A DNA stretch of 63,483 bases, counting the filler, from Chrysochromulina tobinii (taxonomy: Eukaryota): NCBI GenBank assembly GCA_001275005.1. It is 7 parts of 7 records of this genome, joined end to end, with 100 filler letters (N's around TTAATTAATTAA, not from the genome) between each part and the next. Parts side by side here need not be neighbours in the genome. Positions count along the whole stretch, not along the records: positions 1 to 12,124 come from JWZX01000406.1; positions 12,225 to 20,929 come from JWZX01000407.1; positions 21,030 to 27,694 come from JWZX01000411.1; positions 27,795 to 37,280 come from JWZX01000412.1; positions 37,381 to 51,832 come from JWZX01000413.1; 2 more parts are not named here. One strand, given 5' to 3'. The stretch's first letter is position 1. Each line of letters starts with the position of its first letter. A program made the translations under genes and the position numbers. Below the pieces are notes generated by a model, which saw nothing but the letters and a program-made list of their open reading frames with translations, was not told the DNA's origin and made no database searches. Shown here in pieces: positions 3,001 to 40,575 of this stretch.

Positions 3001-5110
3001 TCTTCAACGTCGACCGCGCGGCAGCAGGCGCCCACTTGCGCCCTCGCCTCGGCTTCGCGCTCACGGCGGCGCTTCAGCTCCTCGGCCCGCATGCGGGCGG
3101 CCTTGTGACCCCGAGCTTCCTTGCCCTCGATGCTTGCACCTCGACGCTGCTGAGCTTGCTCCTCATCCTTGGTGCGACTGCCGTCTCGCTCCCGTCCCTT
3201 GCGGGTGAGCTCGCCGAGTTGCTGCGGCAGGGGCAGAAGCACCCCGCTCATCTGCCATCCCCTCCCAATACGGCGCTCTGCACCGCCACCGAGGCGATCA
3301 GCGTCGCCATCGGTCTCGCCGTCTACAAGCTTACGCTGCTCATCGTGAGCGTGTGGCCACTGCGCGTGGGCGGGCTGGCGATTGGCATGCGGTCCAACCC
3401 GTATGCTATCGACGAGATCGACGGACTCACGGCCTTGCATCACGCAGCGGCTTGCGGCTCGCCTTGGTTCACCTGGTACTGCCTGCAGCAGCAACCGACC
3501 GGCGTGAAGGACGGGCGAACGAGGATCGATCTGAGGAGTGTCGTCGATCTCGTGGATCGTCAAGGGCGCACCGCCCTGTTGCTTGCATGCAATGCTGGGC
3601 ACGAGCAGCCCGTGAAGCTGCTGCTTGCTAGGGGTGCTCGGCTCGAGCATCGCGACGCATGCGGATGGACGCCGCTGCTATATGCGTGTGCCAAGGGGCA
3701 CGAGCTCCTCGTTCGCGAGCTGCTGCGCCGAGACGCCATGTTGCATCAATGCGACAACAGGCATGCAACCGCGCTGCTCCTGGCGTGTGCCAACGGGCAC
3801 GAGAGCACGGCGAGCTTGCTGCTCGAGAGCGGCGCGTGCATCGAGAGTACGGATGCCGACGGAGGCACCGCCTTGCAGTGCGCCTGCGCAAACGGCCACG
3901 GGCGTACCGCCGAGATGCTCTTGAACAGGGGGGCGGCAATCGAGCATCAAGACTACGAAGGGCGCACCGCCTTGACTTGGGCATGCGCGTCAGGACATGA
4001 GGCTGTCGGCAGGATGCTGCTTCAGCGCGGCGCCAACATGGAGCACCTCACTCTTTCTGGCCACTCGCCTCTCTTCCGGGCGTGTGCGAATGGGCACATG
4101 AGCACGGTGAGAGGGATGCATGCTGCATCCCTGGCGTGCATGCTGATGACGTCTGATGACGTCTGATGACGTCTGATGACGTCTGATGACGTCTGATGAC
4201 GTCTGATGACGTCTGATTGCCCTGGCGTGCATACTGAGAGCAGCTGATGGCCTCCCTCATCAGGCGAGGGCGCCCTCTGAGAGGATCTCCGACCGATTGC
4301 GTCTGATTGCGTTTCTGAGTGCATGCTGATGGCCTGCCTCATCAGGCGAGGGCCCTCCTCGAGCATGGCGCTAGCCTCGTGCACACGACGCGCTCGGGCG
4401 CGAATGCCATGCAGCACGCCTGCTACCACGGCCAGACAGAGGTAGCAGAGGTCCTCTTGGCGCGCGGCGCGGAGCTCGAGCACCAGACGAAGCAGCGCTG
4501 GACTGCCCTGCTTCTGGCGGCGAGTGAGGGGCATGAGACAACAGTTCGAATGCTGCTCGGGCGCGGCGCGTCGGTTCAACATGCCGATCAGGATGGGCAC
4601 ACGAGTCTGATGCATGCTTGCGACGGCGACCACACGAGCACGGCCAAGTTGCTTCTCGAGCACCGCGCAAGCGTTGAGTCCATCGACTCGGATGGTTGCT
4701 CGGCCTTACACTGGGCATGCATGCGGGGGCACGTGGGCTGCGCTCAGCTACTCCTCGCACACGGCGCTCTGCTTGAGCTCGCGAGCTTTGACGGGCGCAC
4801 GCCGCTCATGTGGGCATGCGCGAGCGACCAAGTGCCCATGGTGCAGTTTTTACTGTCGCAAGGCGCAGCGCAGCGCCACACGGATTGCGAAGGCGACACT
4901 GCCCTCTCGATCGCCGAACGACGGGGATTCGACGGCACCGCCGAGATCCTACGCACATACGGTACCGAGTGGTGGCGATCGCGCCAGCTGCTGATTCTCG
5001 CCTCGAGGGAGCTGATGATGATGCGAGAGTTCCCTCTGTGGGCCCCTGAAGCTCGTAGCTCAAGCGAGGCCAAGCAAACATCAGATGATGACGCGAGCCT
5101 CGACGCCTGA
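21..5110 (+). CDS. Multi-pass membrane protein (possibly XK-related-like TM region) with a long C-terminal ankyrin-repeat array; exons 21-4106 and 4346-5110
   Basis: Many GxTALxxAxxxGH ankyrin repeats. Splicing GT4107..AG4345 joins ANGHMST|ARALLEHGAS in frame and completes an ankyrin repeat. The start codon is uncertain (21 or 180). Confidence 0.85.
934..996 (+). repeat. 3 x 21-nt in-frame tandem repeat (CCGCGGAGATCCCATCTCGGA; AEIPSRT)
   Basis: Read directly. Each unit contains a GAGAT-ccc-ATCTC mini-palindrome. Confidence 0.9.
4107..4345 (+). other. Cassette-A intron with a (GTCTGATGAC)n array and two stacked acceptors (4263, 4345)
   Basis: GT..AG restores the frame. Both CTCATCAG acceptors are followed by GCGAGGGC. 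Confidence 0.85.
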
Positions 5111-5724
5111 ACTTCAGTGAAGTACCACGTGCATGAAGATAGTCTAGAAGGTCTAGGAACGGACGGACGCTAAAGTACAGAAAGTCTCGCATCTTGTTTA
5201 CAGCATACAGTCGGAAACAGCCCAAAATACAGCCGTTTACGTAGTAGCCCTTACACGGACCACGGAGTAAAAATGACTACAGGTCTCAACTCTGAAGCGT
5301 CTACTCTCTACTCTGCTGTAAACGGGTGTCGTGGTACCCACCTCCCACGCTACTCCCACGCCAGGGCCCAGGCGACAGACACAGAGCCGCGAGCTCGGAG
5401 GGGAAAGAACGAACGACTCGAAACTAAAAAACAACCGGGTCAACGCGTGTCCGGTCGACTCGTGGCTACTACGGTGAACGGTCCAGATACGTAGTACTAC
5501 AGCCGTTCACGTGGACAATCGATAAGCGGCCAATTGTACCCCGTTACCGCTGTCCACAGCACACGGCTCACACGAGCTAGTTACTCCCTCAGTGACGAGC
5601 TCCAAGCACGAGAGGGGTCGGGTGCGGTGCATGTCTCCAGGCTACTCTAAGTCTGACATACCGATTGTAAGGTGTGGCTGAGGTTGTACTGGTATCCCCT
5701 GATCTGATGTCTTGGTGCGCGCTC

Positions 5725-7792
5725 TCACAAACCCCAAACGCTCGCGTTCTTTTTGGCCCAGGCGTTTGCCTCAGCCTCGGTCAGGTCGACCTTTCCAGTC
5801 AGCGCAGACACCCTGCCCGATGGCGTCACCTTGTTCAAGATGAGGTCGACCACGTGATTCACGCAGCGCGGCACTGGCTGTGTTTTAGGCTCATCTCCCC
5901 AAATCGTATGGCCAGATACCATCATCTTCTGGAACGCTTCCTCGTCGTTCAGGCGCAACTTAGCAAAGTACTGGAATGCGTTTGTGCATTCGTACTCTGC
6001 AATCTGCTGGTCGGTAGGCAGCGCCTTGAGCATGGAGATACGCACGAGCCCTTCCAGAAAGCCTTCGAACGGCAGCGTGGACTCCTTGCGGCGGCCCGTC
6101 TTCGTGCACTCATCGATGACGCACATGCGGCTCCAGGCAAAGCTCATCGCAGCTTCTCGCTCGGTCACGTCGACGCCGACGATGTCACATAACCGAAGTA
6201 CGCCAATAAACTCGTGTATTAACATGTGCTTCGCCTTCAGTCCCGCCCCTCCCGTGGTGCAAACGGATGTGAAGAGGTTGCGCAACGACGCCTCCTGGGG
6301 CTTGAGGACATCATCAATCTCGCGGCGGTAACAGTACTTTTTGCGGAACTTGTTCGGATCTACGAAGATCTTAGGGCTGAGCAGCGGCTTGATGTCTTGC
6401 ACCAGTAGTCTCTTGATTGCAGGGGCCACGTCCGTCAGCATGCCGGAGAGAACGTACCGATTGATCGCGATGTGAACCAAGCAAACGAGGAATTCAACGC
6501 GGCCCAGTTTCTTCTTCTGAAGATCGTCATGGTCCGCGCCGGTGATGCGATCCGCGAACGCGTCACCGGCGTTCTTCTTAAGTTCTTGAGAGTTCTTGAC
6601 AGCTTCTTGTATGGCCTGCTGCGTCATTGCGGCCTTGGTATCGACTGCGATGAAGAGGCGGTCCAAATCGCTCTTCTTCAGGAACTTGGATTTGTTGTCT
6701 GAAATTTTGCAATCCTCGACGAACTGAATCCATTGGTTCAGGTACCAGAACATGAGGTCATTGCCGGTGCTCGCATAGTACATAAAGACGACAAAGTAGA
6801 GGTTCCGCAGTTCGCACAGAACCTTTTCGACCTCTTTCAGCTCCTTAGGTAGCTCGACGCCTTCCTCAAGTAGATCGGCACCCCTGCCCCTGCTACTTCC
6901 TGCGTCCTCATGCGCGATCAGCTTCATCAAGCCCATCGAGCACGCGCGTCGCCAGTCGTTCACGACTCGCTGATTCTCGACTGCCTCGCTATCTAGGAGG
7001 TCCTTGCTGTCGCACCATTCCGCACGGGGAGCCCAAATAGACTCGGTCCAAGTGAACTTTTTCTTTTCAGGCTTGGCCGGGTCCTCCTTCTTCTTGCGCT
7101 TCTTCTTCTCTGGCTCTGGCTCCGGCTCCTTTGGCTTAGGCGCGGCCTTTGGCTCCGGTGGAGGCGGCGCTTCCTTCTCTACTGTGACTGGTTTGGCCTT
7201 TGGCTCCGGCTCCTTAGGCTTAGGCGGCGGGGCCTTTGGTTCCGGCGGCAGCGCCTCTTCCTTGGGTGGCGGAGCAGCCTTTTTCACCTTCACCTCGGGC
7301 ACTGGCTCTGTGGGCGCTTGCAAGGGCTCCTTGTGTGTCGGAGCGGCCTTTTTCGGCGGTAGCGGCCTTGGGCGGCGGAGCGACCTTCGGGGTGGCAGCC
7401 GCCTTTGGAGCCTCAGACACGGGCTCCGGCTCGGGCTCAGGCTCGGGCTCGGGCTCGACGGGTTGGACGGGCACAGGAGCAGCCTTGGCGGCTGGAGCGG
7501 CGGGCCCAGGGCCCGGACCCGGCTTAGCAGCGGGTGCACCCGGTGCGGCCTTGGCAGCGGCGGCTGATCTGGGCGCCGCTTTGGGGGCCGCCTTGGGCGC
7601 TTCGGGAACTGGTTCTGGCTCCGGCTCCGGCTCCGGCTCCGACTCGGATTCGAGCTCTGGCTCTGGCTCTCGCTCTGGCTGTTTGGCTTGGATCGGGGCG
7701 GGCCGAGCCGCGACGACCGCCTTTGGGTTGACGACGACGGGCTCCGGAGCTGCTATAAGTTCAGCCTCAGGCGGCGGTGGCGGCGGTGCCTC

Positions 7793-7833
<41 letters not shown>

Positions 7834-9073
7834 ACTCCGAGGAGACGTACGACGAGACGTATGAATCCTCGGACTCCTCCTCGGATTCGTATTCAGAAGA
7901 TGACTCGCTCTCCGGCCGATGCCCGTCTCGCAATCCCCAAGTCTCTTTCGGCTGGCTGACGTACTCATCCTCCTCCACCTCCTCAGGCGGAGGGACCACG
8001 TACCGATTCCGTAGCAGCTGCACGTGCGAGTACGCGAACGCCGCCTGCCGGGCATCCGAGCGATTCCTGTTGAGTGCGAGCTCCTCGTTCAGCGCATTAA
8101 AGACTCGGGAAGCCCGATGGGCGTGGCCGACATGTGTCCGGTCGAACTTCACGATTTTCTCCTCCACTGAAGCGGGCATCATCCACCAGGCTGGAGCGGA
8201 ATTCTTGAGACTCCAACCTTCGAACGTAAAATTGAGCGGCACGAAGTGCGTTCGCGAGCGCGCCGAAGGGTCACCCGTTGGGCTGGGCGTGCGCGAGTTC
8301 CAGCTGGGCGCGACTTCCATGACAAAGCCGTCCCGCTCGCCAAGCTCGCGGGCCAGGTCCGGGGAAGGATCACGAGTCTCAGGACGCGAGTCGACGTCAA
8401 CGTGCGACGCGAGGTCCTCTGAAGGCATCTCATCTGCTGTCTTGTGCTCCGTCTCTTGGGCCGACGCGTGAGCCGCTGGTCGAGGAGGGCGAGGTCTCCT
8501 CGTGACAACCAAGACGCCTTCGGGCCGTTCGCCTTTGCTTGTTCGTAAGTGGCGCAAACTCGTCCCCCAAGGGTTCCCAATCTCATAGCTCATGAGGTTG
8601 TGGGCACTTTGCGGCCTCGCGAGTCTCAATCCCTTTGGCGGCGGCTGGAAGGCGACGAGCTTTGGGCGTGGTCGCTCTGACGGACTGGGCGCCCTCACAC
8701 GGCTGGCCACGCTGGAGTTTTGCGGCAAGCGATCGAGGTGCAGCTGGCGGCTATGCGGCGGCCGCTCGTTGGGATCTCCGCTCTCGCCAAAGTGGGGCTC
8801 AGCATGCGTGTGAGCAGGGACCCTCGGGATGCCACCCTCCTGGAGCGGTGGCCTTGGCGGGGTAGACTCGAGAGCGAGTCGGGCCATCTTGGTCGCGGAT
8901 GGCTGCGGTGGCAAGGGTCCACCGTAAGAGACCATCCTCCGGTAGAACATGAGGTTAGCATGACCGTACGCATCACCGGCTGCCGGTTGCAATGATTTCC
9001 GGTTGCGCACGGAGGGCAACGACCTCGGTGGTAGGGAGTAAGCGCTTCGACGATCCTCTTTCAGGATCGTCAT
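5725..9073 (-). CDS. Large uncharacterised protein: Pro/Glu/Lys-rich linker plus a conserved-looking helical (EF-hand-like) C-terminal domain; single frameshift near 7360
   Basis: ORFs 7220..9073 and 5725..7539 carry the same PEPEP/KAAP low-complexity sequence in different frames. Confidence 0.65.
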
Positions 9074-9425
9074 GCACCCGCGGGCCGCGGCTCCCGGCGA
9101 CCGTCACACAGCACACGCCGGAGTATTCAGCCGACGGTGTTTTGCAGGCCCGCGCGACTCGCGTCTGCACACACGAGGGGAAAAGCAAGAACTGGCTTTC
9201 AGGAACCGCTCCCCCGAGGTGACGGGGTAGGCGGAAACATAAACATGAAACGACCACAACTGAAACCCACGGGACTACGACACTACCCTCACGGCGCGTG
9301 CAGGAGCACAGGGTTCAAGATGAAAAGCCAAGTGTAGGGAGCGCTTGGGACGGCGCGCGACCTGGCACATCGGATCATGGTAAAACGAGTAGGCCTGGGC
9401 TGCATCAATCGCCGCATCGTTCGGA

Positions 9426-10406
9426 ATGGATCCGATTCTGCTGTCGCTGAATGCACGGCGTACCCTCGAGCTGCGCATTCCCGCGACCGACAAGCGCGTC
9501 AATTGTTCAAACACCGTCGAAACGCTCTCGGGCCTTGAGGCAGCGGCCGCAGCGCTTCGCCGTGCGGTGTGTGCGCGCGCTGCAGCCGGGCGGAACGGCA
9601 CCATTGGCAGTGATGACGAGGACCTGCTCGAAGACGACGATGACGACGATGGACTGCACGCCCACTGCCTCATCCGTGTGCAGACCTTGCCTGTCGCTCA
9701 GTCGATTGGAGGCAAGCTCTGGGACGCATCTCTGCTGATGAGCGCGTGGCTCGCTGGCTCAGTAGTAGATCTGGTTCCACCCGCATCAGCCGCTGGAGCT
9801 CGCCGGCCGCTCGTGCTCGAGGTGGGCGCCGGCCTCGGCGTAGTCGGTTTGGCGCTCGCCAAGCAGTGCCCGTGGCTCCACGTGACCTTGAGCGACTACG
9901 ACACTGAGATCGTCGAGAACCTCGAGCGCAACGCTGCGCTCAACTTTGCATCGCCGCGGCCGGAGCACACGCTCGATGTGGCAGCCCTCGACTTTCGCGA
10001 CTTCACGCCAGCATCGATAGACAAGGCGCCGCTCCCGCAGTGCCTGCAGCAGCACGCTGACGCTGGCCTCTACGGACAGGTTGACCTGTTGCTGGGCGCA
10101 GACGTCGTGTATGAGAAGACGCATTGCCAGCTAGCTCACGTGTGCCTCGCTCTCCTGGCCCCGCACACGGACGAGCGCCGGCCACCGCCGTGCGCCGTCT
10201 TCTTCTCGAATATCAGCCGGCCATACATTCGCGACTTCGTCGAGGGATTAGATGCGGCGGGGCTCAGCTGCCGCATCGAGCGTGTGACGCCCTCAGAGGC
10301 TCTGGCGCGTCGACTACGCCGAACCCACGAAGGCTGGGGCGTCGGCGCGATTTTTTGCATGTTTCATGTCACGCGGCGCCCGCCCGTCGCTGTTGAGGTG
10401 GATTGA
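9426..10406 (+). CDS. SAM-dependent protein-lysine methyltransferase, Methyltransf_16 (METTL21/EFM-like) family
   Basis: Motifs GGKLWDAS, VLEVGAGLG, LSDY and LLGADVVYE. Confidence 0.9.
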   Translation: MDPILLSLNARRTLELRIPATDKRVNCSNTVETLSGLEAAAAALRRAVCARAAAGRNGTIGSDDEDLLEDDDDDDGLHAHCLIRVQTLPVAQSIGGKLWDASLLMSAWLAGSVVDLVPPASAAGARRPLVLEVGAGLGVVGLALAKQCPWLHVTLSDYDTEIVENLERNAALNFASPRPEHTLDVAALDFRDFTPASIDKAPLPQCLQQHADAGLYGQVDLLLGADVVYEKTHCQLAHVCLALLAPHTDERRPPPCAVFFSNISRPYIRDFVEGLDAAGLSCRIERVTPSEALARRLRRTHEGWGVGAIFCMFHVTRRPPVAVEVD

Positions 10407-10711
10407 AATTTGTCGGAACGCTCGGATCACTGGGATGAAAACTTTTCCCGCGATGCGCCGGAAGCGCGATCGCTCCTTCGCTCGCTCCAGTCGACCGGTC
10501 GCAGCGTCGCACTCTCGCGCACCGCACCGCCAGACCGGACGGCACACCCCCGCCGTCCCCTTCTTTTTTTCCCCGGCTTCGCTTCTGCGTTCACGTGATT
10601 ATAAATTGTTTTTTCTCGGCTCGCCCCCTCCTGTCGAAAGACCCCCCTTCTTCCTTCCCACTTGAACTTGAACTTGGGGTGAGACTTCGGGAAAGTCCCA
10701 AGTTCTCTCCA

Positions 10712-14929: not shown

Positions 14930-15554
14930 ATGCCTAAGGAAGACTTCCTACCCGGCCAGACGAAGGAGCTCGACCCTAATGCTGCGGACACCGAGGCGCT
15001 CACGAACTTCTATCAGTCCTTGCTGAGGCAGCGGCCAGAGAGCGAGATGGCGCAACGATGGCTGCTGCAGTACGGGCTGCTGCCAGGCGGCGAGGACGAG
15101 GCGAAGGCGATGATCAAGAAGCTGGGCAAGTCGGCACCGTCTTCAAAGCCCACGGCGGCCAAGAAGCCCAGCAAACCCGCCGCGAACGACGACGACTTTG
15201 AGAGCAAGCCCAAGAGCAAGGCACCAGCAAAGAAGCCGCCACCGTCCAAGTCAAAGGCCACCATCGCCAAGGAAGACTCGAGTGACGAGGAGTTTGAGGA
15301 GAAGAAGAAGCCCGCCGCCACCAAGAAGCCCGCCGCCAGCAGCAAGCCTCCAGCCAAGAGGCCAGGTACCGCCTGCCGCTTTCCGTCTCGTCACGCCAGT
15401 GCGCGCGGCGACAAGCTTGCCGGGCGACCCTGCTCGCCTTGCCCGCGCCGCCTCTGTCTGACGTGCGCCGTGCTCGCCTTGCCCGCGTCGCCTCGCAGTC
15501 GACGAAAATTCGTCAGATGAGGATGTGCCGATTACTAAGAAGGCGAAGAAATGA
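14930..15554 (+). CDS. Small Lys-rich conserved-type protein; exons 14930-15365 and 15499-15554 (conventional intron)
   Basis: Core FYQSLLRQRPESEMAQRWLLQYGLL. GT15366..AG15498 gives ...RP|VDENSSDEDVPITKKAKK*. Confidence 0.7.
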
Positions 15555-15887: not shown

Positions 15888-18800
15888 ATGGTTCACAGAT
15901 CCAAAACCGACCGGTGGAGGCAGTGCGGCAGTCCATTGCCGACGCCACCGCGCATGTGGTCGCTCGAGCCGACGCTCCCAAGGCAGCAACAGGAGCCCGA
16001 GGATTATTGGCCGCTGCGGCCGCGGCCGGCGGCCGGTTCGCCGCCTCGAACGCGTGATGCTGTCGTCGATCTGATGGTGCAGCCGTCGCCCGCAGACAGG
16101 AGCCGCTACCCCTCCGCCCCTCCCCGAAGGCCTTCCTCGTCCGCGTCGGCCGCTCCAGCTGCAGCCGTGGGGTCACTACGGCGCTCGCAGTCGGCGAGTG
16201 GCGGTATCCTCCGGCGCTCTCCGAAGCGGGCGCCCGCGGCGCCGGGCAGCATGGCGGGCAGCGTGGCGCAGGTGGAAGGGCTGCTGCGTCGGCTGGGCGA
16301 GCTCGAGGAGACGGTGATGTTGCAGCAGGTGTCCGACGACCGGCTCAAGGAGGCCAACATCGCGCTCATGGAACGGCTGAGTGAGTTCCAGCGCGTGAAT
16401 GAGTCCAACGTCACGCAGGCGGAGGAGGAGCTCGCGAGGATCCACTGCGCGCTGCAAGAGGAGCGGGCGGCGCGCGCGGCGGCCGAGCAGGCGATAGCCG
16501 AGCAGCAGACCTACACGGTGCAGCAGCGCGGCGCGGTCGCGAGCGCGAGCGAGACGGCACAGACCGAGGGCGCTCGCGCGGCCGCTCTCTCCGAGCAGCT
16601 CAGGCTGCTGATGGTCGAGCAAGCCTTCACTGCACGCACCGCAGCCCTGGGTGCACGCGCCCTCACTCGCAAGTACCTGCGGCTGCTGCACGAGCGCGCG
16701 TGCCGGCAGCGGCGGCTCCGTGGGCTGCAGGGCAGCGTGCTCGCCGGCGCGCTCCTCCGCTCCGTGCGCCGTGCGTACCTACGTGTCTCTTTAGGGCATT
16801 GGAAGCGCCTGAGGTCGGCTGAGCAGCTCGCGCGTCGCGTGCTTCGGGCGGCGACGATTGCATGCGCGCGCCGATGCCTGGCGCACTGGGCACGCTGGCG
16901 CCAGGTAGGGCGCATGGCGCGCCGCGCGCAGCACGTGCGCCTCCAGCGACTCCAGCGCCAATGGATGCGCGCCCTCGTGAGCGCTCACGAGAGCGCGCGC
17001 CGGCTCGCTGCTGGGCTGGAGAGGGTGAGCGCGAGCGCGCGCACGCGCACGCGAGCGCGGCTGCTGCGCGCGTGGCGGCGGGCGGTGCACGCGATGCACG
17101 AGCGCGAGGAGCACGCCGCCCGGCACGGCGCGCGCCTTGAGCCGCGCTTGTGCGTACTGGCCGGGCTGCGCCGTTGGGCTCGGTGGATCGCTAGCTTGCG
17201 AAGGGAGCGCGTGATCGACTCTCAGAGGGGGGCGGCGGCGCGGCTGCACTGGCTCGAGGCTGCGGTGGAGCGATGGCGGCGCGCGGCGCGCTATCTAGCC
17301 ACGATGGGGCTTGGCGGCGGCGGGGCGACAGGCGCTGTGATGGGCGCCTTCGGGCAGCGCCGCACGCGCCGTGCCGGGCGATCGGAGCTGTGGAAGGCCG
17401 CGGGGAAGGCTAGCAGCGCCGTACCGGCAGCCATTCACAGCGCCGTACCGGCAGCCATTCACACAGGCGGCGGTGCCGGAGGCGGCGGAGGCTACGTGGC
17501 CACTCGCCGCGTGGCGCTGCTGCAGGCGCTGCAGGGCAACTCGCTCTACTTGCGAGCTCGCGGCTGCCTCATGCGATGGCGCGCCGCCACGCGTTCGCGC
17601 CGCGTCCTGGCCAAGTGGCTCACGGAGGCCTCTCTCCATGCCCTGGCGCTTGGCGCGGCGGCGGCGCTCTACTGGTGGCGGCGGCTCACTCGTCGTCATC
17701 GTGGCGCGCGCCGGCGACGCCATCGGGCCGACCGTTACTTTGAGCGCCGTCTCGAGCAGCGCGTGTGGCGCGGCTGGCTGCGGCTGGTGCAGCTCGGCCG
17801 GCGACGCCGGGACGATGAGGCTCGCAAGAGCTGGGAGGCCGCGCATGCAGGGTTCGTCAAATGGGCGTCGGTGCTCGAGACGGCGCGAGCGGCTGTGAAA
17901 CGCCGACGCGCGGCGATGGCGCACTTGCGTCGCGGCCGCCTCGCGCGCGGTACGGCCGCCTTCCGATCGCCACTGATGACCTGCCTTTGCATGCAAGTGC
18001 TCATCGCAGCGCGTGCGCCTGGCAGGTACGGCCGCCTTCCGCTCGCGTGCCGCATCTCGTGTGGCGTCGCAACTGGCGCGAGCGCAGGCGACGGCTCGAC
18101 GGCGCCTCGAACCTAATATGGACCTGCCCCTCGCATGCAAGTGCTCACCACGGCGCCCGCCCCTCTTTCCCCACAGGCGACGGCTCGACGGCGGATGGCC
18201 TCTCGACGGTTATGCGCGGCGGGCCTCGCGCGTTGGGCGCTCGCGTGCGCGTCGCTCATGCGCCGCAGCCGGCAAGCCGTTACCTCGGAGCTCGACCTCT
18301 GATGGCCTCTGATGACTTCTGATGACTTCTGATGACCTCCGATTGCCTCCCTCATCAGGCAAGCCGTTACCTCGGAGCTCGACCTCTGATGGCCTCTGAT
18401 GACTTCTGATGACCTCTGATGACCTCCGATTGCCTCCCCCATCAGGCAAGCCGTTACCTCGGAGCTCGAGCTCTGATGACCTCTGATGACCTCTGATGAC
18501 CTCTGATGACCTCCGATTGCCTCCCTCATCAGGCAAGCCGTTACTTCGGAGCTCGAGCTCCGCTCCGAGCTGCTTGCCCAGTCGCGCGCGGCCGCCGGTG
18601 CTGTGGAGTCCGAGAATGACGACTTCCGCGCGCGCGTCGAGTCGCTCGAGACGGACATCGCGGTGCTGCAGCAGGTGTGCGACGATGGGCACGCTCTTGG
18701 CCACTGACGGCCACTGTGGCCACTTTGATGGCCACTTGATGGCACGTTGTTGGCCATCAAGCACGTTGATGGCCACTTGAGCGTCGCTGACCGACCCTGA

Positions 18801-20839
18801 TCGACCCCTTTCCCACACCAATCGACCCCTTTTCCCCACAGGTGCTCGAGGAGCATCGTCGCGCCGCCGCCGAGACCACCGGCATGCAAGCGCTCACCAC
18901 GGCGCCGTGTCCCTTCCCCACAGGTGCTCGAGGAGCATCGTCGCGCCGCCGCCGAGACCACCGGCTCTCTGCGCGCGCTCGAGGCGGACCGCGACGAGTC
19001 CGAAGCCGCGCGGGACGAGATGGCCCTCGAGCTCGAGGAGGCCAAGGCGGCGGCCGCGAGCTGGCGCGAGCAGTTCGAGCAGCTGCGCCAGATGCATCGA
19101 GATCAGAGCCAGATGCATCGAGATCAGACCGTCGCTCAGGAGGCCGCGCTCTCAACGGCCACGCGCCGTGTCGAGCAGCTCACCGCCGAGGCGGCCAAGC
19201 GAGATCAGCTGCTGGGCGCTGCACAGGCTGCTCTCGAGCAATCGGGTGGGCGGCTCAGCGCGGCGACGGCCGACCGCGACGATAAGCTGCGGGCGGCGCT
19301 CGAGGTGAGCCAGGGCGCGAGTCTGATGGCCTCGGATGGCCTCTGATTGCCGCCCTCATCAGCGCTCGACGTGAGCCAGGGCTTGCCCTCGGCTTCGTCT
19401 GAGTGCCTTTCTCATCATCCCGGATGACCTCGGTGTGCCTTCGGATGGCCACCCATGGACTGTCCACGTGGCACTCACCGCGTCTGATTGCCTCCCTCAT
19501 CAGTCACCCATGGACTGTCCACGTGGCACTAGCCGCGTCTGATTGCCTCCCTCATCAGCCACCCATGGACTGTCCACGTGGCACTCACCGCGTCTGATTG
19601 CCTCCCTCATCAGTCACCCATGGACTGTCCACGTGGCACTCACCGCGTCTGATTGCGTCCCTCATCAGTCACCCATGGACTGTCCACGTGGCACTGACCG
19701 CGTCTGATTGCCTCCCTCATCAGGTGAGCGCCTCACTCCGATCGGTCATCGCCCAAAAAGAGGACCTACTCCAAGCGGCGGCGGCGCGCGAGCGGAGATT
19801 GGGCGAGATTGCGCGCAAGCTCGAGTCGCGAGCTCTCTCGAGCCACGCCCAGCTCACCCAGCTTCGGGAGGCCGAGGGGGAGCGCGCGGCCGAGTTGCAG
19901 CAGCTGCGGGGCGCCCTCAAGCGCGCCGAGGCGAAGGCAGCTGCCCTCGAGGAGGCGGTGCGTCTCAGCCCTTGATTGCGTCTGATTGCGTCTGATTGCG
20001 TCTGATTGCGAAGGCAGCTGCCCTCGAGGAGGCGGTGCGTCTCAGCCCTCTCATCGCCCTCTATGAGTGCCCTCTCATGGGCTTCTCATCGCCCACTCCT
20101 TGCCGTCACTAGTGCTCTCTGAGTGCCCGCTTGAGTGCCCTCTTGAGTGCCGCTAAGTCTCCTCTGAGACTCACTGATGACCACTGATGACCACTGATTG
20201 CCTCCCTCATCAGGTGCGCGCGAGCCACGCCGCCTTCGACGCGGCTCGCACCGAGATACTCTCGCTACGCGCGGGAATGGGCGGCGCCGTCGTGGGCACC
20301 CTGCCCCGAGGCTGGGTTGCCTCAGCACCTCCCTGGGCTGCCTCAGCTGCGCCTCCCTGGGCTGCCTCAGCACCTCCCTCAGCTGCCTCAGCACCTCCCT
20401 GGGCTGCCTCAGCTGCGCCTCCCTCAGCTGCCCCAGCGCCTCCCTCAGCTGCCTCAGCGCCTCCCTCGGCTGCCTCAGCGCCGGTCGGTGCAGGCGGCGC
20501 CAGAAGATCTGGGCGCGCCGTACCGAGCACTGGTCCCACGATCGGAGGCTCCGCCCCCGCCCCCGCCCCCGCCCCCGCCCCTGCGGCAGCCCCCGCAGCA
20601 GCCCCCGCAGCCGCCCATTTCGTACACAAGCCCGCGGAAGCCATGCCGTCGGAACGAAGCCGAGCGCCGAGCGCCGTCTCGAGCGCCCGCAGCGGCGCCG
20701 TGCCGAGCGCCGTCTCGAGCGCGGTGGATGCGATGGCGCAGATCCGTGCGTTACAGGCGGAGCTCGCGCAGGCTTCGGCCGCGGCGCAGCTCGCGCAGGC
20801 GCCGCTGCCGCTCCTGCCTGTGGCTCCTCGACGACAGGA

Positions 20840-20870
<31 letters not shown>

Positions 20871-22687: not shown

Positions 22688-22705
22688 TCGACAAAGAGAC
22701 CATCG

Positions 22706-23296: not shown

Positions 23297-23872
23297 GTTT
23301 GAACTGAACGACATCTGAACGGCATCCACTCTCTTTTCGGGTCCGGAGGACACATGCGGAGACCATGCGTGGTTTCACACATCGCGCGGCCACCGGGACG
23401 GTGACGAGATCGGTGGCCTTTACTCAGTCTCCCGTCCGGAGCGCATGGGCTGAGATAAGTGACTGACGATTTAGATTCGAGATTGATATTTTGATTGATG
23501 ACTCCCGGATGTGCGGACCTGACCGCGCCGGACGTGTGTGTAAACTGCACACAATGAGAAAGTAAGAAGTGAATTGTATTAATCGCTCTGGTGTACGTAA
23601 GTCAGAGTCGAGTGGCTCGCGATCCTGAGATGCTCGCGAACTCGCTACTCTACGAGGGCATTCACCATGGCATTCACCGACCCTACCGACGACCCGAACG
23701 TCGGACCGTACATGTAGAGTTGTGACACCCACACCGGGCCGACGCACATCCCTGCCCCTCACTGGTCTGCCACGGTGTTCACATGTCCCCGGTCTGCCAC
23801 GGGTGCCCCTGTCCCTCTTCGTTCGGTTCGCCCCCCCGGACAGTCGCGTGCAGGGGCTGGGGCACGAATGCC

Positions 23873-26800
23873 TCAGAGCACGCCCAGCTCCGTCAGCAGG
23901 AAATCAACTTGCTGTGCGAGCGTGCCTTGGCCCTCGATGCCCATGGCCGCATTCGCCTCGGCGACTGCCTTCGCCACCGGCAGCGAAGGGTCGAGTGAGA
24001 GCTCCTCCTTGACGCGCGCCACCTTTTGCGCCATCGTGCGCTCCGCGGTCGGGGAGCCTAGCGGCGCCGTCGTGGGCACGGATTTGGGCGCGGCGCTCGA
24101 CGGTGCCGCCGCGGAGGCGGAGGCGGCGGACGGGGCGGACGGGCGAACCGCACCTCCACCACCACCACCGACGGGGGACATAGCGGCACCGGCGGTGCTG
24201 CTGCTGCTGCTGTCCGTGTCCGACGCACCCCCGGCGGGCGACGAGGCGTGTCGTGCGGTGGTCTGCTGACTGGTCGCCTGATGGACGTTCACTCCCACGG
24301 GCTGACTCGTCGACGGCAGGCGCGCCGCCGTCGAGCCGACGGTCGAGGCGAGGCGCTCGCTCGTGAGCGGCCTGCGATCCGCGCCGTCGTGGGCACGCCT
24401 GGCCGACTCGGTCGCATGCTCGGGCAGCCCGAGGTGCTCATGATGGCGCTTGGGCAGCGGGAGCGGAGGCGCCGTCGCCGCGTCGGCGAGGGCGGCGGAG
24501 GAGGAAGGGGCGGAGGGGGCGGAGGAGGGGGGGGCGGCCCCGTACGGCATCTCTCCTGCCGACACGCCGGCCATCGCATGCGCATGCACTGAGAGCGGCA
24601 AGCCCGTCGTCGTGGGCAGCTCGCCGCCCAGCACGGCGCTCGCGCCCAGCACGGCGGCCGTGAACCCCGCGGTGCCCGCGGACGCGTCGACGGCACCCCC
24701 GAGCACGACGCCGCCCGACACGGCGCCACCAAGGCCGCCCGACACGGCGCCGCCCGACGCGGTGGCGCCGCCGCCTCGAATACTCGTCACTTCCTCGACG
24801 AGCGCGCGCAGCTGGGGCTCGAGCAGGTGCTCGGTTTCGGCAGCTGGGGCGCCCAGCGCGGCGCTCAGGTCGGTGCACGAGCGGCTGCCGAGGACCATCC
24901 CCACACCGCCCCACCAGTCGCGCGGTGACGAAACCTGCGGCTCGAGCGCGATCGAGATCAGAGGTCATCAGAGGTCATCAGAGGTCATCAGAGGTCATCA
25001 GAGGTCATCAGGGGTATGACGAGACCTGCGGCTCGAGCGCGATCGAGATCAGCCGATCGGCCCCCTTGGTGCGCTCGGCGTACTCGAATTGCTTCTTGAG
25101 CGAGTCGTGCCTGATGAGGGAGGCCATCAGCGGTCATCAGAGGTCATCAGCGGCCATCAGAGGCCATCAGAGGCCATCAGAGGCCATCAGAGGCCATCAG
25201 AGGTCATCAGAGGTCATCAGAGCTCATCGAGGCCATCAGAGCTCATCAGAGGCCATCAGAGCTCATCAGAGGCCATCAGAGCTCATCAGAGGCGATCAGA
25301 CGTACGGTCCATCTTTGCCAGCAATCCGATCGAGCGCGCGCGTGCTCACGAAGACGAGCACAAGGTCGGAGTCGTCGATGGCTTCGCATGCCTTCTCGAG
25401 CGAATGGCCCGTTGTAGGCTCGGGCTCGTACCTGATGAGGGAGGCCATCAGAGGTCATCAGAGGTCATCAGAGGTCATCAGAGGTCATCAGAGGTCATCA
25501 GAGGCCATCAGAGGCCACTCTGAGTGGCCCGTAATCAGCCCGTAATCAGCTCGTAATCAGCCCGTACCAGCAGAGGTAGCCCGCAGCTCGTAGCACCTCG
25601 AGCGTGCGCAGCACACGCTCATGCAGCATCCGTCCGCGCGCCGTCCTGAGCACGTCCATGCCCGCCTCGTGCATCAGGAAGAGCTGGCAAGGGCCGTCGC
25701 CCGCCATCCCCGCGGCGAGGCCCGCCCCGAGGGTCGTCGAGAGGGTCGTCGAGAGGGCCGCGGAGGAGGAGGTGCACGCGGACAAGGCGCTGGTCGCGGG
25801 GGAGGCGGCGGCGAGCACGCCCCCCTCCCTGGGTTGGATCGGCAGCGCCTTGGGCACCGTGGACGCAGCTCCCGGCGCGACGGCGCCCGGTACAGCGCGC
25901 GCACCCTCGTGCGGCTCGTCGTCGGTGCAGGACTCGTCAGGCGCGATGCGCAGGTCGGGCGCCTCGACCCACTTGCGCTCGGCCGAGTTCCACACCGACC
26001 AGACGCCACTGATGAGCTCGGGCACCGGAGCGAGCGAGCGCACCTGTGGGGCATTGGGGGGGTGGCGCGGTGGTGAGAACTTGCATGCAGAGGCGTCGCG
26101 CGGGCACTGGAGCGAGGGGCGATGGCGCCGTGGCGAGCACCTGTACCCAGCCCTGGCCAAGCGCCTTCTCGTCGCGCTTGCCCACGTACCAGTACGGCGT
26201 GAGGAACCACACCATCCTTGCCGGGTTGCCCACCTGCTGGTAGCACACGCGGTCGTTGACGAGCTCGCCCTCGCACCTGTGGGGAGAGGCGAGGCGCCGT
26301 GGTGAGCACTTGCATGCACAGGGACCATGCGGTCGTTGACGAGCTCGCCCTCGCACAGTTCATACGTGCCCAGCTTGTCTTGATGACGCTCGCCTGGCGT
26401 TGTACCCGAGAGGATGACGCGCGAGCGCACATGCTCGGTGCAGCCCACGCCGTCAGCCTTGTGCCACACGTTCCCGTCGCCGACTTCCCACACGCCCTTG
26501 ATCGCCTCGGGGATGCGCGCCGAGTCCTGATGAGGGAGGCAATCAAGGGTGTCATCAGAGGCAATCAAGAATGTTATCAGAGGCAATCAAGGGTGTCATC
26601 AGCGCCGAGAGCTCAGTACCTGATGATGGAGGCAATCAAGGGTGTCATCAGAGGCCATCAGTACCTGGCAACGCCAGAAGCCACTCTGCTTGCCGACGGA
26701 GGCCGCTGGCCCGATCCACCAGACGCCCGCCGCGTGCCAGAGCATGGTGTCGCTCTCGGGCCGCTGATAGAACGCGTGGCTGTGCACCTCTTGCCCCTTG

Positions 26801-27647
26801 ACGCGCCGATACGAGCCGAGCTTATCGGCGTACACGGAGCATGCGGGTGGGGTCGGGCCGCTGATGACGACGCGCTCGTTGCCCACGGCGGTGACGCGGA
26901 TGTTCTCGGAGGGGATCCAGCGCTTGTCCACCTGGTTCCAGATCTGCCACACGCCCGTGATCTCCTCGGGCAGCGGCGCCGAGTCGCGCACCTGTGGGGA
27001 AGGGAGCACAACGGGGCGCCGTGGTGAGCACATGCATGCTGAGGGTCTGCTGGTGGGGGGAGGGGCGCGCCGTGGTGAGCACCTGCATCCAGCCCGCTTG
27101 CTTGCCGAGCTCATCGCGCTTGCCCACGTACCAGTAGCCGTTACTGGCCCACACCATGTGGGAGATGGACGGCTCCTTTTCGTACACGGGCTTGCCGTTC
27201 ACCTCGGTGGCCGAGATCATGCGGAACTCGCCCATCTTGTCCTTATGGAGCCCGCTCAGCGGCGCACCGATCACTTGAGCGTGCGAGGCAAAGATCTCAA
27301 TCGTGCGAGCTCCGATGGCCGCGCAGCGCACGTTGGGCGCCTGATTAGGGAGGCAATTAGGGAGGCAATTAGGGAGGCAATTAGGGAGGCAATTAGCGCA
27401 GCGCACGTTGGGCGCCTGATTAGGGAGGCAATTTGGTTATTAGAGGTCATCAAGAGGCAATCATGGCTCATCAGTGTACCTGATGGAGCCGCTCGCCGTC
27501 ACCGACACGCCAGCAGCTCTGCACGAGCTCTGGCGCCGGCGCCGGGTCGCGCACGCAGAGCCACCCCTGCGACTTGCCAAGCTCGTTCTTCTTGCCGAGG
27601 TACCAGTAGCCCGCAGCGTACCAGAGCATGCGGTTATCGTTGCCCAC
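23873..27647 (-). CDS. TIR-domain protein with N-terminal ~95-aa Trp/Gly-rich repeats and a small C-terminal helical domain; 8 cassette introns (27341-27479, 26992-27082, 26527-26664, 26277-26356, 26044-26140, 25432-25567, 25111-25305, 24935-25025); 5' truncated
   Basis: The spliced product reads LFLMHEAG...GYLCWYE...ACEAIDDSDLVLVFVS...LKKQFEYAERTKGADRLISIALEP...WWGGVGMVLGSR, which is TIR_2-like. All exon phases are consistent. Confidence 0.82.
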
Positions 27648-27694
27648 CTGCGGCGCGGCCGAGAAAGGGAGGGAGGGGTGGCGGGGGAGGGAGG

Positions 27695-37280: not shown

Positions 37281-37380
37281 NNNNNNNNNNNNNNNNNNNN
37301 NNNNNNNNNNNNNNNNNNNNNNNNTTAATTAATTAANNNNNNNNNNNNNNNNNNNNNNNNNNNNNNNNNNNNNNNNNNNN
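37281..37380. other. Artificial contig-joining linker
   Basis: 44N-TTAATTAATTAA-44N. Confidence 0.97.
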
Positions 37381-37908
37381 GTAATGCGGGTCAAAAATAC
37401 GCAATACGCAAAATGCTGAAAATACGCAAAAACAAAATACGCTGCGTATGGCGTACCTTACACTGATGCGCGGCGCGGGTCAAACAGACGCGAGACGGCT
37501 CTTACCTCTTTGACGCTCGGCTCGCGGTGGGAGCAATTGGAATTGCAAGAGGACCAAGGTCGAAGGTGGGAGTCGGGAGTGCAGAGTCGAGAGTGAGAGT
37601 CGATGTATCTGTATTTACGGCGAGGTGTGCGAGTCAAACCTGACGCATGTCACCAAATGCGCGTGTCGAACGTTACACCTCATTTTGGTCGAGGATCATG
37701 TGGCGAGTTTTCACTGTGAAGTGCGCCCATTCACAGCCAATGTTAATGATTCGACACCCAAGACACCGGTCCGGCGTACATACGTGTGCGGTTACAACTA
37801 GCTCGGGACCCCTGGACCCCCTTCTCACAGCCATAGTTCATACTCGATCATTCACACGATGGAGACCCGCATAGGTGTGGGAGTTCTCCTGGCCGTAGTG
37901 GAGGGGTT

Positions 37909-40447
37909 GTGGCACAGCAACCCCTTATGGGCGCAACGGCCGATCCATTCCTCATGGAGCACGAGCGCGCGGTCAGCCCGTCGGCCGTGCAACGCGCGGC
38001 GCTGCACATCCAGGATGCATTCGACGGCACCGAGCACGTCCATCCACGAGAAGGCCGGGCTCTGCGCCGGCTGTGGCTAGTGCACCTAGCACTGATCGTG
38101 CCGTGCCGCCTCGCCCTCGCTGGACTGGTGCTGCTCTCATTTATCGAGCAGCCACCTTGGGTCTTGGAGGCGCGCCGCCACGTGCCAAACGCCGACATCG
38201 AGACGCATTACCCCACCTTCGGCCTGCCGATGCTGCCGGTGGCGACGTCCTTGGCTGTGGAGGCGGCGCTCCTGCTCATGCTCGTGTTGGATGCGGCGTG
38301 CATGGTGATAGCTCAGGGCGTGCCCGCCGTTCTCAACAGCCGCCTACCCGTCCGCGTCTACTTGTGTGCGCTCGCTCTCGCCATCGTCGACGTCGTCGTT
38401 GCAGCTGCTGGCGAGGCCCGACGGATGGTGGAGGGTTCTGGGTGGCCATGGAAGTCGATGCGTCTCGCGTGGCATCTGCGGCTCACGATGCTCGTCCTGC
38501 GCTCCGATGATCTGCTGAGCGCTTTCGACTTGGTGCGCCGCTCCATCCCGAGGTTTGGTGGCGTCTTCTTCGTCCTCGTCCTGTACGTGCTCATCTACGG
38601 ATGGGCAGCTGTGCTCCTGTTTCGGCGCGCGGAGGAAGGTGTGAGCGACTTCGACACGCTGGCGGAGGCGATTTGGACACTCTTGATCACGCTCACCACC
38701 GCCAACTTCCCGGACGTCATGATGCCCTTCTACGCACGCTCCCGCCTCGTCGTGCTCTTCTTCGCCCCGTACCTCCTCATAGGCCACATCTTCCTTCTCA
38801 ACCTAGTCCTCGCCGTCGTGGTCCATGCGTACTCGGAGAACCGGGCGGCGCTCGCCACTGGTGCCACTGATTGCCATGGATTGCCACTGATTGCCACGGA
38901 TTGCCACGGATTGCCACTGAGTGCCACCCTGAGTGCCTCCCTCATCAGGTGTCGCCGAGCGACGGCGCACCTCGCTGGCACGCGCGTTCCGCGAGCTCGA
39001 CGCGAGCCGCGCTGGTCGGCTCCCGCGGGACGTCGTCACGGGCTTGTACCAAGAGCTACGCCACTACCGTGAGCTCCTCGAGCCCGCCGCGCTCGACACG
39101 GCGCTCTTTTTCGCCGCGCTCGATCGCTCGGGCGACGGCTGGGTCGATGCGGACGAGTTCACACGGCTGTGTGAACTCCTCCAGGTGGGCTTCCAGCGAG
39201 CGCCTCGGCGCACTTGGTTTGAGAGCCTCGCCCCTTCGCTCGCAGCCTCGGCTGGCTGGCGACGTACACGGGAGCTGTTGCTCTCGAGCAGCTTCGAAGA
39301 CGGGATCGACGCATTGCTCTTGATGACTGGGGCGGCCCTCGTCCTCGAAGGAGAGCAGTTCCTCTACAGCGGCGCTCCGGAAGACTTCGACTCGCGCCCC
39401 AATAGCGTGTGGAATGTGCTCGAGCTCCTCTTCGCCGCCGCCTTCGCGCTCGAGATGGCGCTCAAGCTCGCGGCTCTGGGCTGGTCCAAGTACATGGGCT
39501 CGCTCAAGAACACCTTCGACGCCCTTGTCACCGTCGCCACCTGCGTCGTTGCCATCATCGTCTATGTGCCCAACGCCTTCAACGACTCACGCCTCATTCG
39601 CCTCGTCCTGCTCACGCGGCTGCTGCGCCTGCTGCGCCTACTCCACTGGTCAGTGCACGTGCGATCGGTCTCCGTCACCTTTCTGTACGCGTGGCCGCAA
39701 GCGGTCAAATTGGGCAAGATGCTCTTCTGCATGCATTACGCCTTCGGGGCGCTCGGCGTCTTTTGCTTTGGCGGGCTCATCAACACAGACTCGCAGCGGA
39801 CCGAGTTGGAGCTGTTGCAGGCGTCAAGCTTCGGCAAGGCGAACTATTACCCGAACAACTTCAACGACCTCGCCTCGGGGTTCGTGACGTGCTTTGAGCT
39901 ACTCATCGTCAACAATTGGTTCGTCCTGTGCGACGGGATCGTGGCGGCGAGCGGTACCAAGTGGTCGCGCGCCTTTTTCGTCGCTTTCTACGCAACGTCG
40001 GTACTCAGTGCTCACCATGGCGCCAAGCTGCTCGCCACCGAGTGCCACTGAGTGCCGATCCACTGCTTCCCACACTGGGTGCCACCGAGTGTAGATGCCC
40101 ATCCAATGACTCTCACTGCTTGCCACTGCTTCCCACACTGAGTGCAGGTGCTCATCGTCCTCAACGTCGCCACCGCCTTCTGCGTCGAGGCATCCCTCAC
40201 GTACATGATCGAGGCCGCTGCCGAGCGTGCCAAGCAGCGCACGGACGGGACGGGCGGGATCGTACAGCCATCGAAGGGCGCTCACCACGGCGCTCAACAC
40301 GGGTCGGATGTCATGAGTGATGGCACGAGTGATGGCACGAGTGATGGCACGGCGGGCGTCCACGACGACGCTGCTGAGAGCACGGGTGCCCGAATGGACT
40401 TCACAGGCGTCTGGCGCTGGCTTGGGCGCATCACACATGGTGTGTGA
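37909..40447 (+). CDS. TPC1: Two-pore cation channel with an EF-hand linker; exons 37909-38860, 38949-40000 and 40148-40447
   Basis: Filter I LTTANFPDVMMP, EF-hand DRSGDGWVDADEF, S4 RLLRLLRL and filter II FELLIVNNW. Two introns restore the frame. Confidence 0.9.
38861..38948 (+). other. Cassette-A intron with a (TTGCCACTGA)-type array
   Basis: Ends CTGAGTGCCTCCCTCATCAG and restores the TPC frame. Confidence 0.88.
40001..40147 (+). other. Intron carrying a cassette-B core (AGTGCTCACCATGGCGCC)
   Basis: GT..AG restores FYATS|VLIVLNVATAF. Confidence 0.82.
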
Positions 40448-40496
40448 TCGGAGAGCCCTTGGACCTGCTGCGAAATGGGGGTCGCGAGTCGCCCAC

Positions 40497-40575
40497 CTGA
40501 TGAGGGGGGAAATCAGAGGTCATCAGAGGCCATCATCATCAGAGGTCATCATCATCAGGGTCGCGAGTCGCCCAC
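40497..40575 (-). other. Orphan cassette-A intron-like insert with an 18-nt duplication, outside recognised CDS
   Basis: On the minus strand: GTGGGCGACTCGCGACCC...CCCTCATCAG|GTGGGCGACTCGCGACCC. Confidence 0.75.

What the first reader, a model, noticed from the sequence alone, without database searches (positions are those of the whole stretch)
4107..40575. Candidate intron-generating system: exon duplication plus a stereotyped branch-point/acceptor cassette
Seen: 17 introns in four unrelated genes (ankyrin, Sfi1-like, TIR, TPC), on both strands, plus one orphan insert, contain cassette A and/or B. In the four genes the cassette is always in the sense orientation, and removal restores each frame exactly. 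Most introns begin with a copy of the start of the next exon: 42 nt at 18842, 28 nt at 26356(-), 24 nt at 18272, 21 nt at 17950, 18 nt at 40575(-), 17 nt at 18088, and 4-8 nt elsewhere. So the donor is co-opted from duplicated exon sequence and the acceptor usually comes from the insert. Established: Introners of Micromonas and Aureococcus are TIR DNA transposons with short fixed target duplications. Inference: variable long duplications, absence of extended TIRs and variable repeat counts point to a different route, such as target-primed or template-switch synthesis from a short RNA/DNA template, or repair-associated insertion.
Basis: partly seen in the sequence, partly recalled or inferred. 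Interest (0 to 1): 0.93.

Follow-up and report, generated by a model that had tools for sequence, protein, structure and literature searches.

The report
Introns copied from neighbouring introns
In a freshwater alga, many short introns are patchworks of a roughly 27-base copy of the neighbouring exon and a piece shared with other introns, sometimes in the same gene, which likely means new introns are pasted from old ones by a transcription-linked copying process that published transposon-intron surveys did not register.

Summary
The observation largely holds. The organism is a freshwater Chrysochromulina. Removing 17 inserts opens four reading frames. RNA contigs support 6 of the 8 junctions in the one gene tested. 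One correction: only 4 of 17 introns start with an exact exon copy of 12 nt or more, and the 18842 copy lies inside a larger intron.

In 126 metagenome loci, 177 of 264 B cores sit between direct repeats, median 27 nt. Cassettes are mostly sense and almost never intergenic. One intron is precisely present or absent between samples.

New here: cassettes are often closest to an intron within 3 kb on the same strand (29 of 116, about 2 expected), and some carry that donor's exon-derived bases. No inverted repeats, A-tail or longer parent element were seen.

Likely mechanism: target-primed copying of existing introns from a sense template. The enzyme is unknown, and RNA versus DNA template is unresolved. 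A 2025 survey lists C. tobinii with 0 introner families. The scan noted one similar intron in another genome (e1-9728496).

The parts
4107..4345 (+). A-type intron in ankyrin gene, with nested duplications
   Evidence: frame restored; Ank Pfam; not RNA-tested
17950..18025 (+). A/B hybrid intron, 16-nt exact exon copy; near-identical cassette in another gene (L041)
18088..18176 (+). B-type intron, 17-nt exon copy, GC donor
18272..18532 (+). three tandem units of exon copy plus A cassette
18675..18923 (+). one intron holding a duplicated acceptor, a 40-nt exon copy starting at 18842, and a B cassette
19305..19723 (+). A-type intron with five 55-nt internal repeats
19958..20213 (+). A-type intron
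27341..27479 (-). A-type intron with internal copy of the next exon start
   Evidence: RNA join in 3 runs
26992..27082 (-). B-type intron, starts inside a B core
   Evidence: RNA join in 3 runs
26527..26664 (-). A-type intron
   Evidence: RNA join
26277..26356 (-). B-type intron with perfect 28-nt exon copy
   Evidence: RNA length match and DNA contigs
26044..26140 (-). B-type intron
   Evidence: RNA length match
25432..25567 (-). A-type intron, 10-mer array
   Evidence: RNA join in X17
25111..25305 (-). A-type intron, long 10-mer array
   Evidence: frame; RNA contig ends only
24935..25025 (-). reverse-polarity intron: acceptor from a copy of the upstream exon end
   Evidence: at least 12 nt left-side match
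38861..38948 (+). A-type intron in two-pore-channel-like gene
40001..40147 (+). intron with truncated B core in the channel gene
40497..40575 (-). orphan A insert with 18-nt duplication, no known coding exon around it (possibly a UTR)

Best explanation
These are spliced introns made of a 17-46-base duplication of the flanking exon and a 40-70-base piece shared with existing introns, likely pasted by a target-primed copying reaction that uses a sense-strand template (most likely pre-mRNA or intron RNA) and an enzyme not identified here. Inferred steps: (1) the antisense strand of a transcribed gene is nicked near G|GT; (2) its 3' end anneals by a few bases to the 3' splice site of an existing intron, sometimes in the same transcript, sometimes elsewhere; (3) synthesis runs back through the pyrimidine tract and the B or A core and stops a few to about 30 bases beyond; (4) it rejoins the target by microhomology about 27 bases downstream, duplicating that stretch. 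Where the duplicate starts with GT or GC, the result splices cleanly and can itself serve as a donor. Other products (donor-carrying inserts, copies that rejoin before AG) come from the same reaction. Tandem units and 10-mer arrays then grow by slippage or unequal crossover.
For: SHOWN.
- Splicing in RNA contigs for 6 of 8 junctions of one gene.
- Direct repeats flank 177 of 264 B cores, median 27 nt, 5-95% range 17-46; 77 of 177 are perfect. 97 rejoin at the AG; in 85 of these 97 the duplicate starts GT and in 80 a G precedes it (26% background).
- Precise presence/absence of an 81-nt intron with a perfect 34-nt repeat: present in L048, absent in L007 and L025. Its cassette differs by one base from the intron 524 nt away.
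- Cis copying: best match is in cis for 29 of 116 introns, about 1.7 expected. Ten or more shared upstream bases in 11 of 371 same-strand pairs within 4 kb, against 54 of 40,669 between loci, 0 of 76 opposite-strand and 0 of 98 farther pairs. A ends show the same trend (3 of 77 against 17 of 5,963 at 25 nt or more).
- Recipients carry donor exon-derived bases with 2-5 nt junction microhomology (L029, L040, L068, L048; read by eye).
- Sense bias: 134 of 149 canonical B and 74 of 80 A, against 93.5% for coding controls and 53.5% for random controls.
- Both flanks non-coding for 1 of 199 B and 1 of 110 A, against 68 of 683 background.
- No TIR (mean 3.3 of 12 bases, n=85) and no A-run (0 of 85).
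INFERRED: nick, strand, template type, enzyme.
Against: - No enzyme was found or excluded: about 1% of a genome was sampled; 8 of 496 coding-like ORFs had an RT-like motif and none was an RT.
- Copies extend past the putative branch site, which a lariat would block, so the template would have to be pre-mRNA, a debranched intron or DNA.
- 65 of 177 events fell outside both clean classes, many rejoining before the AG; 5 of 27 scored non-canonical B cores look strongly antisense.
- Donors lie both upstream (about 4 cases) and downstream (2 cases).
- Most closely similar cassette pairs are in trans, and cis pairs cluster in about 7 loci, so they are not independent.
- Sharing of non-consensus core bases is as high on the opposite strand (13 of 42) as in cis (69 of 236).
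- Site density near a B hit was barely above distal (201 against 141 per Mb), though 2-kb bins are overdispersed (variance/mean 1.7).
- Sense bias and precise ends can be produced by selection alone.
- Only one polymorphic site was found, and loss between direct repeats would look the same.
- The full 25-nt core is kept in 127 of 164 non-exact hits, which a sequence-blind process does not explain.
Confidence: 0.42

Rival explanations
1. Generic DNA break repair (polymerase-theta-like or synthesis-dependent end joining at staggered nicks) makes the duplication and captures a filler from nearby chromosomal DNA. Selection keeps the products that splice, and abundant cassette introns feed the cycle.
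For: Microhomology at both junctions, variable rejoin points (65 of 177), donors on both sides and within 4 kb, nested complex products. Repair-linked intron gain with direct repeats is a recognised route (PMC3443670 passages).
Against: Near absence from non-coding DNA (2 of 309 against about 10%). A-B pairs under 1 kb apart are co-oriented 278 to 7. 89 of 116 non-triplet duplication-plus-insert events carry A or B (though the loci were picked for B). The core is kept whole.
Confidence: 0.3
2. A and B cores are minimal non-autonomous transposons recognised by a dedicated enzyme (Replitron- or Helitron-type HUH, or a non-LTR reverse transcriptase) that carries along parental flank and makes variable target duplications.
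For: Sharp core boundaries. The geometry matches Replitron-1 of Chlamydomonas: oriented dinucleotide target, fuzzy end from the parent, variable TSD; one Replitron protein is reported in C. tobinii (PMC10288648). A recurring subfamily carries its own donor.
Against: No terminal direct or inverted repeat and no tail seen; no shared sequence beyond intron limits; no fold better than shuffles for B. Two unrelated cores share the signature. Copies are confined to genes.
Confidence: 0.22
3. The intron positions are old. Cassettes homogenised their 3' ends by gene conversion, and exon copies arose later by local slippage.
For: 8 of 17 window introns have no real duplication. Three lie at equivalent positions of internal protein repeats. 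Duplicated acceptors occur inside introns (18842). In the seven cross-sample overlaps only one site was seen to differ in presence.
Against: Precise empty allele. Duplicates start exactly at the donor in 92 of 97 (GT or GC). Homologues at 52-57% identity are single ORFs across both channel introns, three of them with contigs of 7.5-24 kb (DNA origin not verified).
Confidence: 0.06

Closest known systems
Introners of Micromonas, Aureococcus, dinoflagellates and marine Chrysochromulina MAGs (PMC9860276 passages and supplement search; PMC12130899 passages and supplement searches; bioRxiv 2020.10.14.339549 parts 1-2 of 4)
   Same: Mass intron gain; one splice site carried and one taken from the target duplication; both polarities occur.
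   Different: Reported TSDs are 3-9 nt and fixed per family, often with TIRs, and families are alike end to end. Here the duplication is 17-46 nt and forms about a third of the intron. The marine Chrysochromulina example has a 4-bp TSD. C. tobinii is listed with 0 families. Small E. huxleyi families (5-6 copies, one with '10bp terminal direct repeats') may be related; their sequences were not seen.
Replitron-1/N1 of Chlamydomonas (PMC10288648, section 9 part 1 and passages)
   Same: Oriented insertion at a dinucleotide, one fixed end, one fuzzy end from the parent's flank, variable TSD.
   Different: Replitrons are 0.9-3.6 kb with terminal direct repeats and a Rep gene, and intron creation is not mentioned in the parts read. 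Here inserts are about 50 nt and gene-restricted.
Target-primed reverse transcription of non-LTR elements and SINEs (recalled)
   Same: Fixed 3' junction, variable 5' junction with microhomology, variable TSD.
   Different: No tail, no small-RNA head, no master copy; donors are host introns.
Intron gain by tandem genomic duplication and by break repair (PMC3443670 passages)
   Same: Exon duplication supplies splice sites; direct repeats flank new introns.
   Different: Described as sporadic, with no filler or unrelated filler. Here the filler is a piece of another intron and the scale is thousands.
Same-gene near-identical introns in Oikopleura and fungi (PMC3879977, PMC3609843 passages)
   Same: Local, same-gene propagation; sense and genic location.
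   Different: Few cases, whole introns, ascribed to reverse splicing, with no long exon duplication described.

Membership tests
Introner (survey definition) | Sequence similarity over the whole intron, both ends | tested here: not met
   The 5' part is a locus-specific exon copy in 123 of 185 canonical B introns; conservation falls off outside the 25-nt core
Introner (survey definition) | Many copies at unrelated gene positions, spliced | tested here: met
Introner (survey definition) | Recent presence/absence polymorphism | tested here: met
   one case, L048 against L007 and L025; direction not polarised
TIR DNA-transposon introner | Terminal inverted repeats | tested here: not met
   mean 3.3 of 12, maximum 6, n=85 B inserts
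TIR DNA-transposon introner | Short fixed TSD (3-9 nt) | tested here: not met
   median 27, 5-95% range 17-46 nt (the score cut-off of 14 hides shorter repeats)
SINE / non-LTR retroposon | Fixed 3' end, variable 5' end, variable TSD | tested here: inconclusive
   97 of 177 events fit; 80 do not
SINE / non-LTR retroposon | Poly(A) or simple-repeat tail; tRNA, 5S or 7SL head | tested here: not met
   0 of 85 with an A-run; no Rfam hit at gathering score in L068, the one locus scanned
SINE / non-LTR retroposon | Partner autonomous element sharing the 3' end | tested here: inconclusive
   none among 8 motif-selected of 496 ORFs in about 1% of a genome
Replitron | Oriented dinucleotide target, parental fuzzy end, variable TSD | tested here: met
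   against PMC10288648
Replitron | Short terminal direct repeats and right-end hairpin | tested here: inconclusive
   no direct repeat noticed, not tested formally; B folds no better than shuffles, A weakly (z about -2)
Replitron | Rep HUH gene in an element with the same ends | not testable with these tools
   no genome held
Reverse-splicing intron transposition | Whole intron inserted without target duplication | tested here: not met
Tandem genomic duplication | Both splice sites from a duplicated AG|GT, no foreign filler | tested here: not met
   a B filler is present in all 177 events; both sites come from the duplicate only in a few (for example L068)

The most novel reading that the evidence does not exclude
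A chain reaction of intron birth with no mobile element. Host machinery primes at a nick in a transcribed gene and copies the 3' end of an intron from pre-mRNA. Every product is a chimera of duplicated exon and older intron and is itself a new template. It would have built a large share of this alga's introns and would be invisible to searches for end-to-end similar introns, so it may be widespread and overlooked.
Probability: 0.33. Interest if true: 0.93.

Novelty: new variant of a known kind. Interest (0 to 1): 0.8.

Why it matters
How new spliceosomal introns arise is a long-open question, and current large surveys attribute most gain to transposons that are alike end to end. Here, 141-180 cassette sites per Mb extrapolate to roughly 8,000-10,000 in a 59-Mb genome reported to have about one intron per gene (PMC4580454), yet a survey scored the species 0. 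Each event records its target, its duplication length and sometimes its donor, and the alga is cultured and polymorphic, so RNA-templated, repair and transposase models can be told apart directly. The signature (intron start equals next-exon start) is easy to screen in other genomes. Gene models in this genus are also likely to mis-splice these introns.

Tried and rejected
- No whole genome was held, so all wider counts rest on 126 loci (688 kb) picked by an exact B match. These loci are enriched for B.
- Viral contigs (B core) and prokaryotic genomes (A core) gave 0 matches.
- RNA was laid on one gene only. The ankyrin, coiled-coil and channel introns rest on frame restoration and, for the channel, on homologue collinearity.
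- Assembly artefact is rejected. Run X6 contigs and assembly L029 (100% over 3,960 nt of the window) agree, and cross-sample pairs share introns. The assembly that lacks the L048 intron keeps a perfect 33-nt repeat elsewhere (L113).
- An snRNA, tRNA or ribozyme origin of the cores found no support in an Rfam scan of L068.
- A hairpin signal in B found no support.
- A test for template read-through into donor exon gave only a weak trend: mean match 2.6 nt for the 28 closest pairs against 1.9 for distant pairs. Not used.
- Paralogue alignments showed no further clean presence/absence.
- A search for full-length channel relatives found none above 57% identity, so no intronless allele (weak).
- I recall that the E. 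huxleyi genome paper reports 10-11-bp tandem repeats in introns; searches did not retrieve it, so this remains a recollection and a possible relative of cassette A.
Full report
SETTING. The window is seven contigs joined by linkers, 64.6% GC. Nine of ten intron-free ORFs are in the protein collection; five of their eight clusters show members named Chrysochromulina parva or C. tobinii. The organism is therefore a freshwater Chrysochromulina. No whole genome was available.

CHECK OF THE OBSERVATION. I delimited 17 introns: 1 in an ankyrin gene, 6 in a coiled-coil-like gene, 8 in a minus-strand repeat gene and 2 in a channel gene. Their removal gives open frames of 493, 1115, 932 and 763 codons, and 12 of 17 have lengths not divisible by three. 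Pfam supports the ankyrin and ion-transport labels but gave nothing for the 'Sfi1' and 'TIR' exon pieces. Exact copies of the next exon at the donor are 12 nt or more in 4 of 17 introns plus the orphan, 4-6 nt in 5, and 3 nt or fewer in 8. The long copy at 18842 follows a duplicated acceptor inside intron 18675-18923.

RNA EVIDENCE. Three RNA runs and one DNA run were laid on 23400-27694. RNA contigs join precisely across four introns, and leave exactly the 112 letters expected for two more. The DNA run carries the inserts. Summed DNA depth at the cassettes is hundreds to thousands of times single-copy depth, with unrelated flanks right after the A acceptor and right before the B core. The other three genes were not RNA-tested. 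Seven channel homologues are collinear across both intron sites (7 of 13 hits aligned; six span the first site without a long gap).

WIDER SAMPLE. An exact scan for the B core returned 131 stretches, stored as 126 loci (688 kb), from 6 of 64 parts of the metagenome collection. From then on I dropped 15 redundant loci. L048 was also dropped and in the density part, and L007 in the pair test. Of 185 canonical B introns with full flanks, 123 begin with a copy of the next exon scoring 12 or more, against none in shuffled pairings. For A ends, 63 of 141 score 15 or more, against 1.9%. A general parse finds direct repeats around 177 of 264 B cores, median 27 nt, with 77 perfect. Of these, 97 rejoin at the AG, 15 take the AG from the duplicate, and 65 fall in neither class; by eye that last group mixes rejoining before the AG, tandem units and diverged ordinary cases. 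In the 97, intron length has median 76 nt, the donor is GT in 85 and GC in 7, and G precedes it in 80. Inserts are 40-72 nt with no terminal inverted repeat and no A-run (n=85). A recurring subfamily carries its own GT donor and an A-type 10-mer before the B core, linking the two cassettes.

WHERE THEY SIT. With a codon model (cross-validated strand accuracy 196 of 233 on 120-nt pieces), 134 of 149 scored canonical B (206 in all) and 74 of 80 scored A (195 in all) are sense. Coding controls gave 93.5% and random controls 53.5%. Non-canonical B cores are less biased (19 of 27). Both flanks look non-coding for 1 of 199 B and 1 of 110 A sites, against 68 of 683 background pairs. Distal density is 141-180 sites per Mb (23 sites in 163 kb; 31 in 172 kb). 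Multiplied by the 59-Mb genome size (PMC4580454, passages) this is roughly 8,000-10,000 sites, a rough extrapolation.

MOBILITY. L048 has an 81-nt B intron with a perfect 34-nt repeat that L007 and L025 lack exactly. It is one case in seven cross-sample overlaps, and gain is not polarised against loss. Unit number and array length also differ between samples (L012/L074, L054/L024, L058/L084), as slippage or unequal crossover predicts.

DONORS. Of 116 B introns with a same-strand neighbour within 3 kb, 29 have their best match in cis, about 1.7 expected. Ten or more identical bases upstream of the core are shared in 11 of 371 same-strand pairs at 250-4,000 nt, 0 of 76 opposite-strand, 0 of 98 farther and 54 of 40,669 between-locus pairs. 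These pairs come from about seven loci and are not independent. In L029, L040 and L068 the shared bases derive from the donor's own duplicated exon, which fixes the direction, and the switch point shows 2-5 nt of microhomology. Donors lie upstream in about four cases and downstream in two (read by eye). Copying between genes also occurs: the window's 17950 cassette matches L041 over 62 nt. No sequence is shared beyond intron limits, so no longer parent element is visible. Against the cis reading, private core variants are shared as often across strands (13 of 42) as in cis (69 of 236), both above trans (17.6%).

MECHANISM. Shown: duplication, fixed and variable ends, parental carry-over, gene restriction, sense bias, splicing. 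Inferred: a nick on the antisense strand primes synthesis on a sense template starting at an intron's 3' end and returns by microhomology about 27 nt on. I favour an RNA template (0.42) because copies are genic, sense and bounded by intron ends, and long shared flanks occur only on the same strand. Generic repair with DNA template switching plus selection (0.30) explains the microhomologies and ragged ends, but not the empty intergenic DNA or the retention of the whole core in 127 of 164 non-exact hits. A dedicated transposase (0.22) explains the sharp core and matches the Replitron-1 signature, but no element or enzyme was seen: 8 of 496 ORFs had an RT-like motif and none was an RT. Old positions with later homogenisation (0.06) may hold for some introns.

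LITERATURE. Nine searches found no description of these cassettes. PMC9860276 (passages; spreadsheet searched, cut when stored; the PDF appendix could not be read) screened C. tobinii and C. parva. In the rows I saw, only marine Chrysochromulina MAGs were listed with introners, and neither core motif was found in the searched text. PMC12130899 (passages; 12 of 14 supplements searched) lists C. tobinii with 0 families. Their method requires similarity at both intron ends, which these chimeras fail. Dinoflagellate classes have TSDs of 3-8 nt (bioRxiv 2020.10.14.339549, parts 1-2 of 4). PMC3443670, PMC3609843, PMC3879977, PMC11282704, PMC12403724 and PMC4580454 were read as passages. Subscription papers (including, from recall, the C. 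parva and E. huxleyi genome papers and Huff et al. 2016) and unseen supplements could hold a prior description.

VERDICT. A real, apparently undescribed, large-scale route to new introns. It works like an introner but fails that family's defining test. The enzyme and template type are open. New variant of a known kind, interest 0.8, with about a one-in-three chance that it is an element-free chain reaction.

Noticed in passing
window 26044-27652 (-): The gene has four internal repeats of about 100 aa; introns 26992-27082, 26527-26664 and 26044-26140 fall at equivalent places in three of them, while the first repeat has none there. They may predate the domain duplication or be repeated hits on CAG|G sites.
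   Followed up: partly
loci L019, L034, L044, L056, L075, L098 and others: Further recurring words: ATTCACAG (60 hits), CTAATTAG (34), GATTGCATGC (72). There may be more cassette families than A and B.
   Followed up: partly
window about 54520-54756: A roughly 240-nt intergenic element with inverted ends of about 44 nt around tandem repeats of about 35 nt; looks MITE-like and unrelated to the cassettes (read).
   Followed up: no
window about 15367-15499 (+), from about 41550 (-), ending about 27648 (-): Apparent introns without A or B cassettes, so ordinary introns coexist.
   Followed up: no
window 25540-25567 (-), 38861-38930 (+), 4140-4220 (+): The 10-mer arrays often absorb local sequence into the repeat unit, as if slippage starts at the exon-cassette junction.
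   Followed up: no
L005, L006, L023, L044, L051, L070: B cores with no acceptor after them, most with a duplication; some may lie in UTRs, introns or in frame in exons.
   Followed up: partly
window 12125, 20930, 27695, 37281, 51833, 61835: Artificial linkers join separate contigs, so gene order across them means nothing.
   Followed up: yes
window 21030-22568 against L005 12900-14462: An 87% identical paralogue of the kinase-like gene, with no cassette difference in the aligned part.
   Followed up: partly
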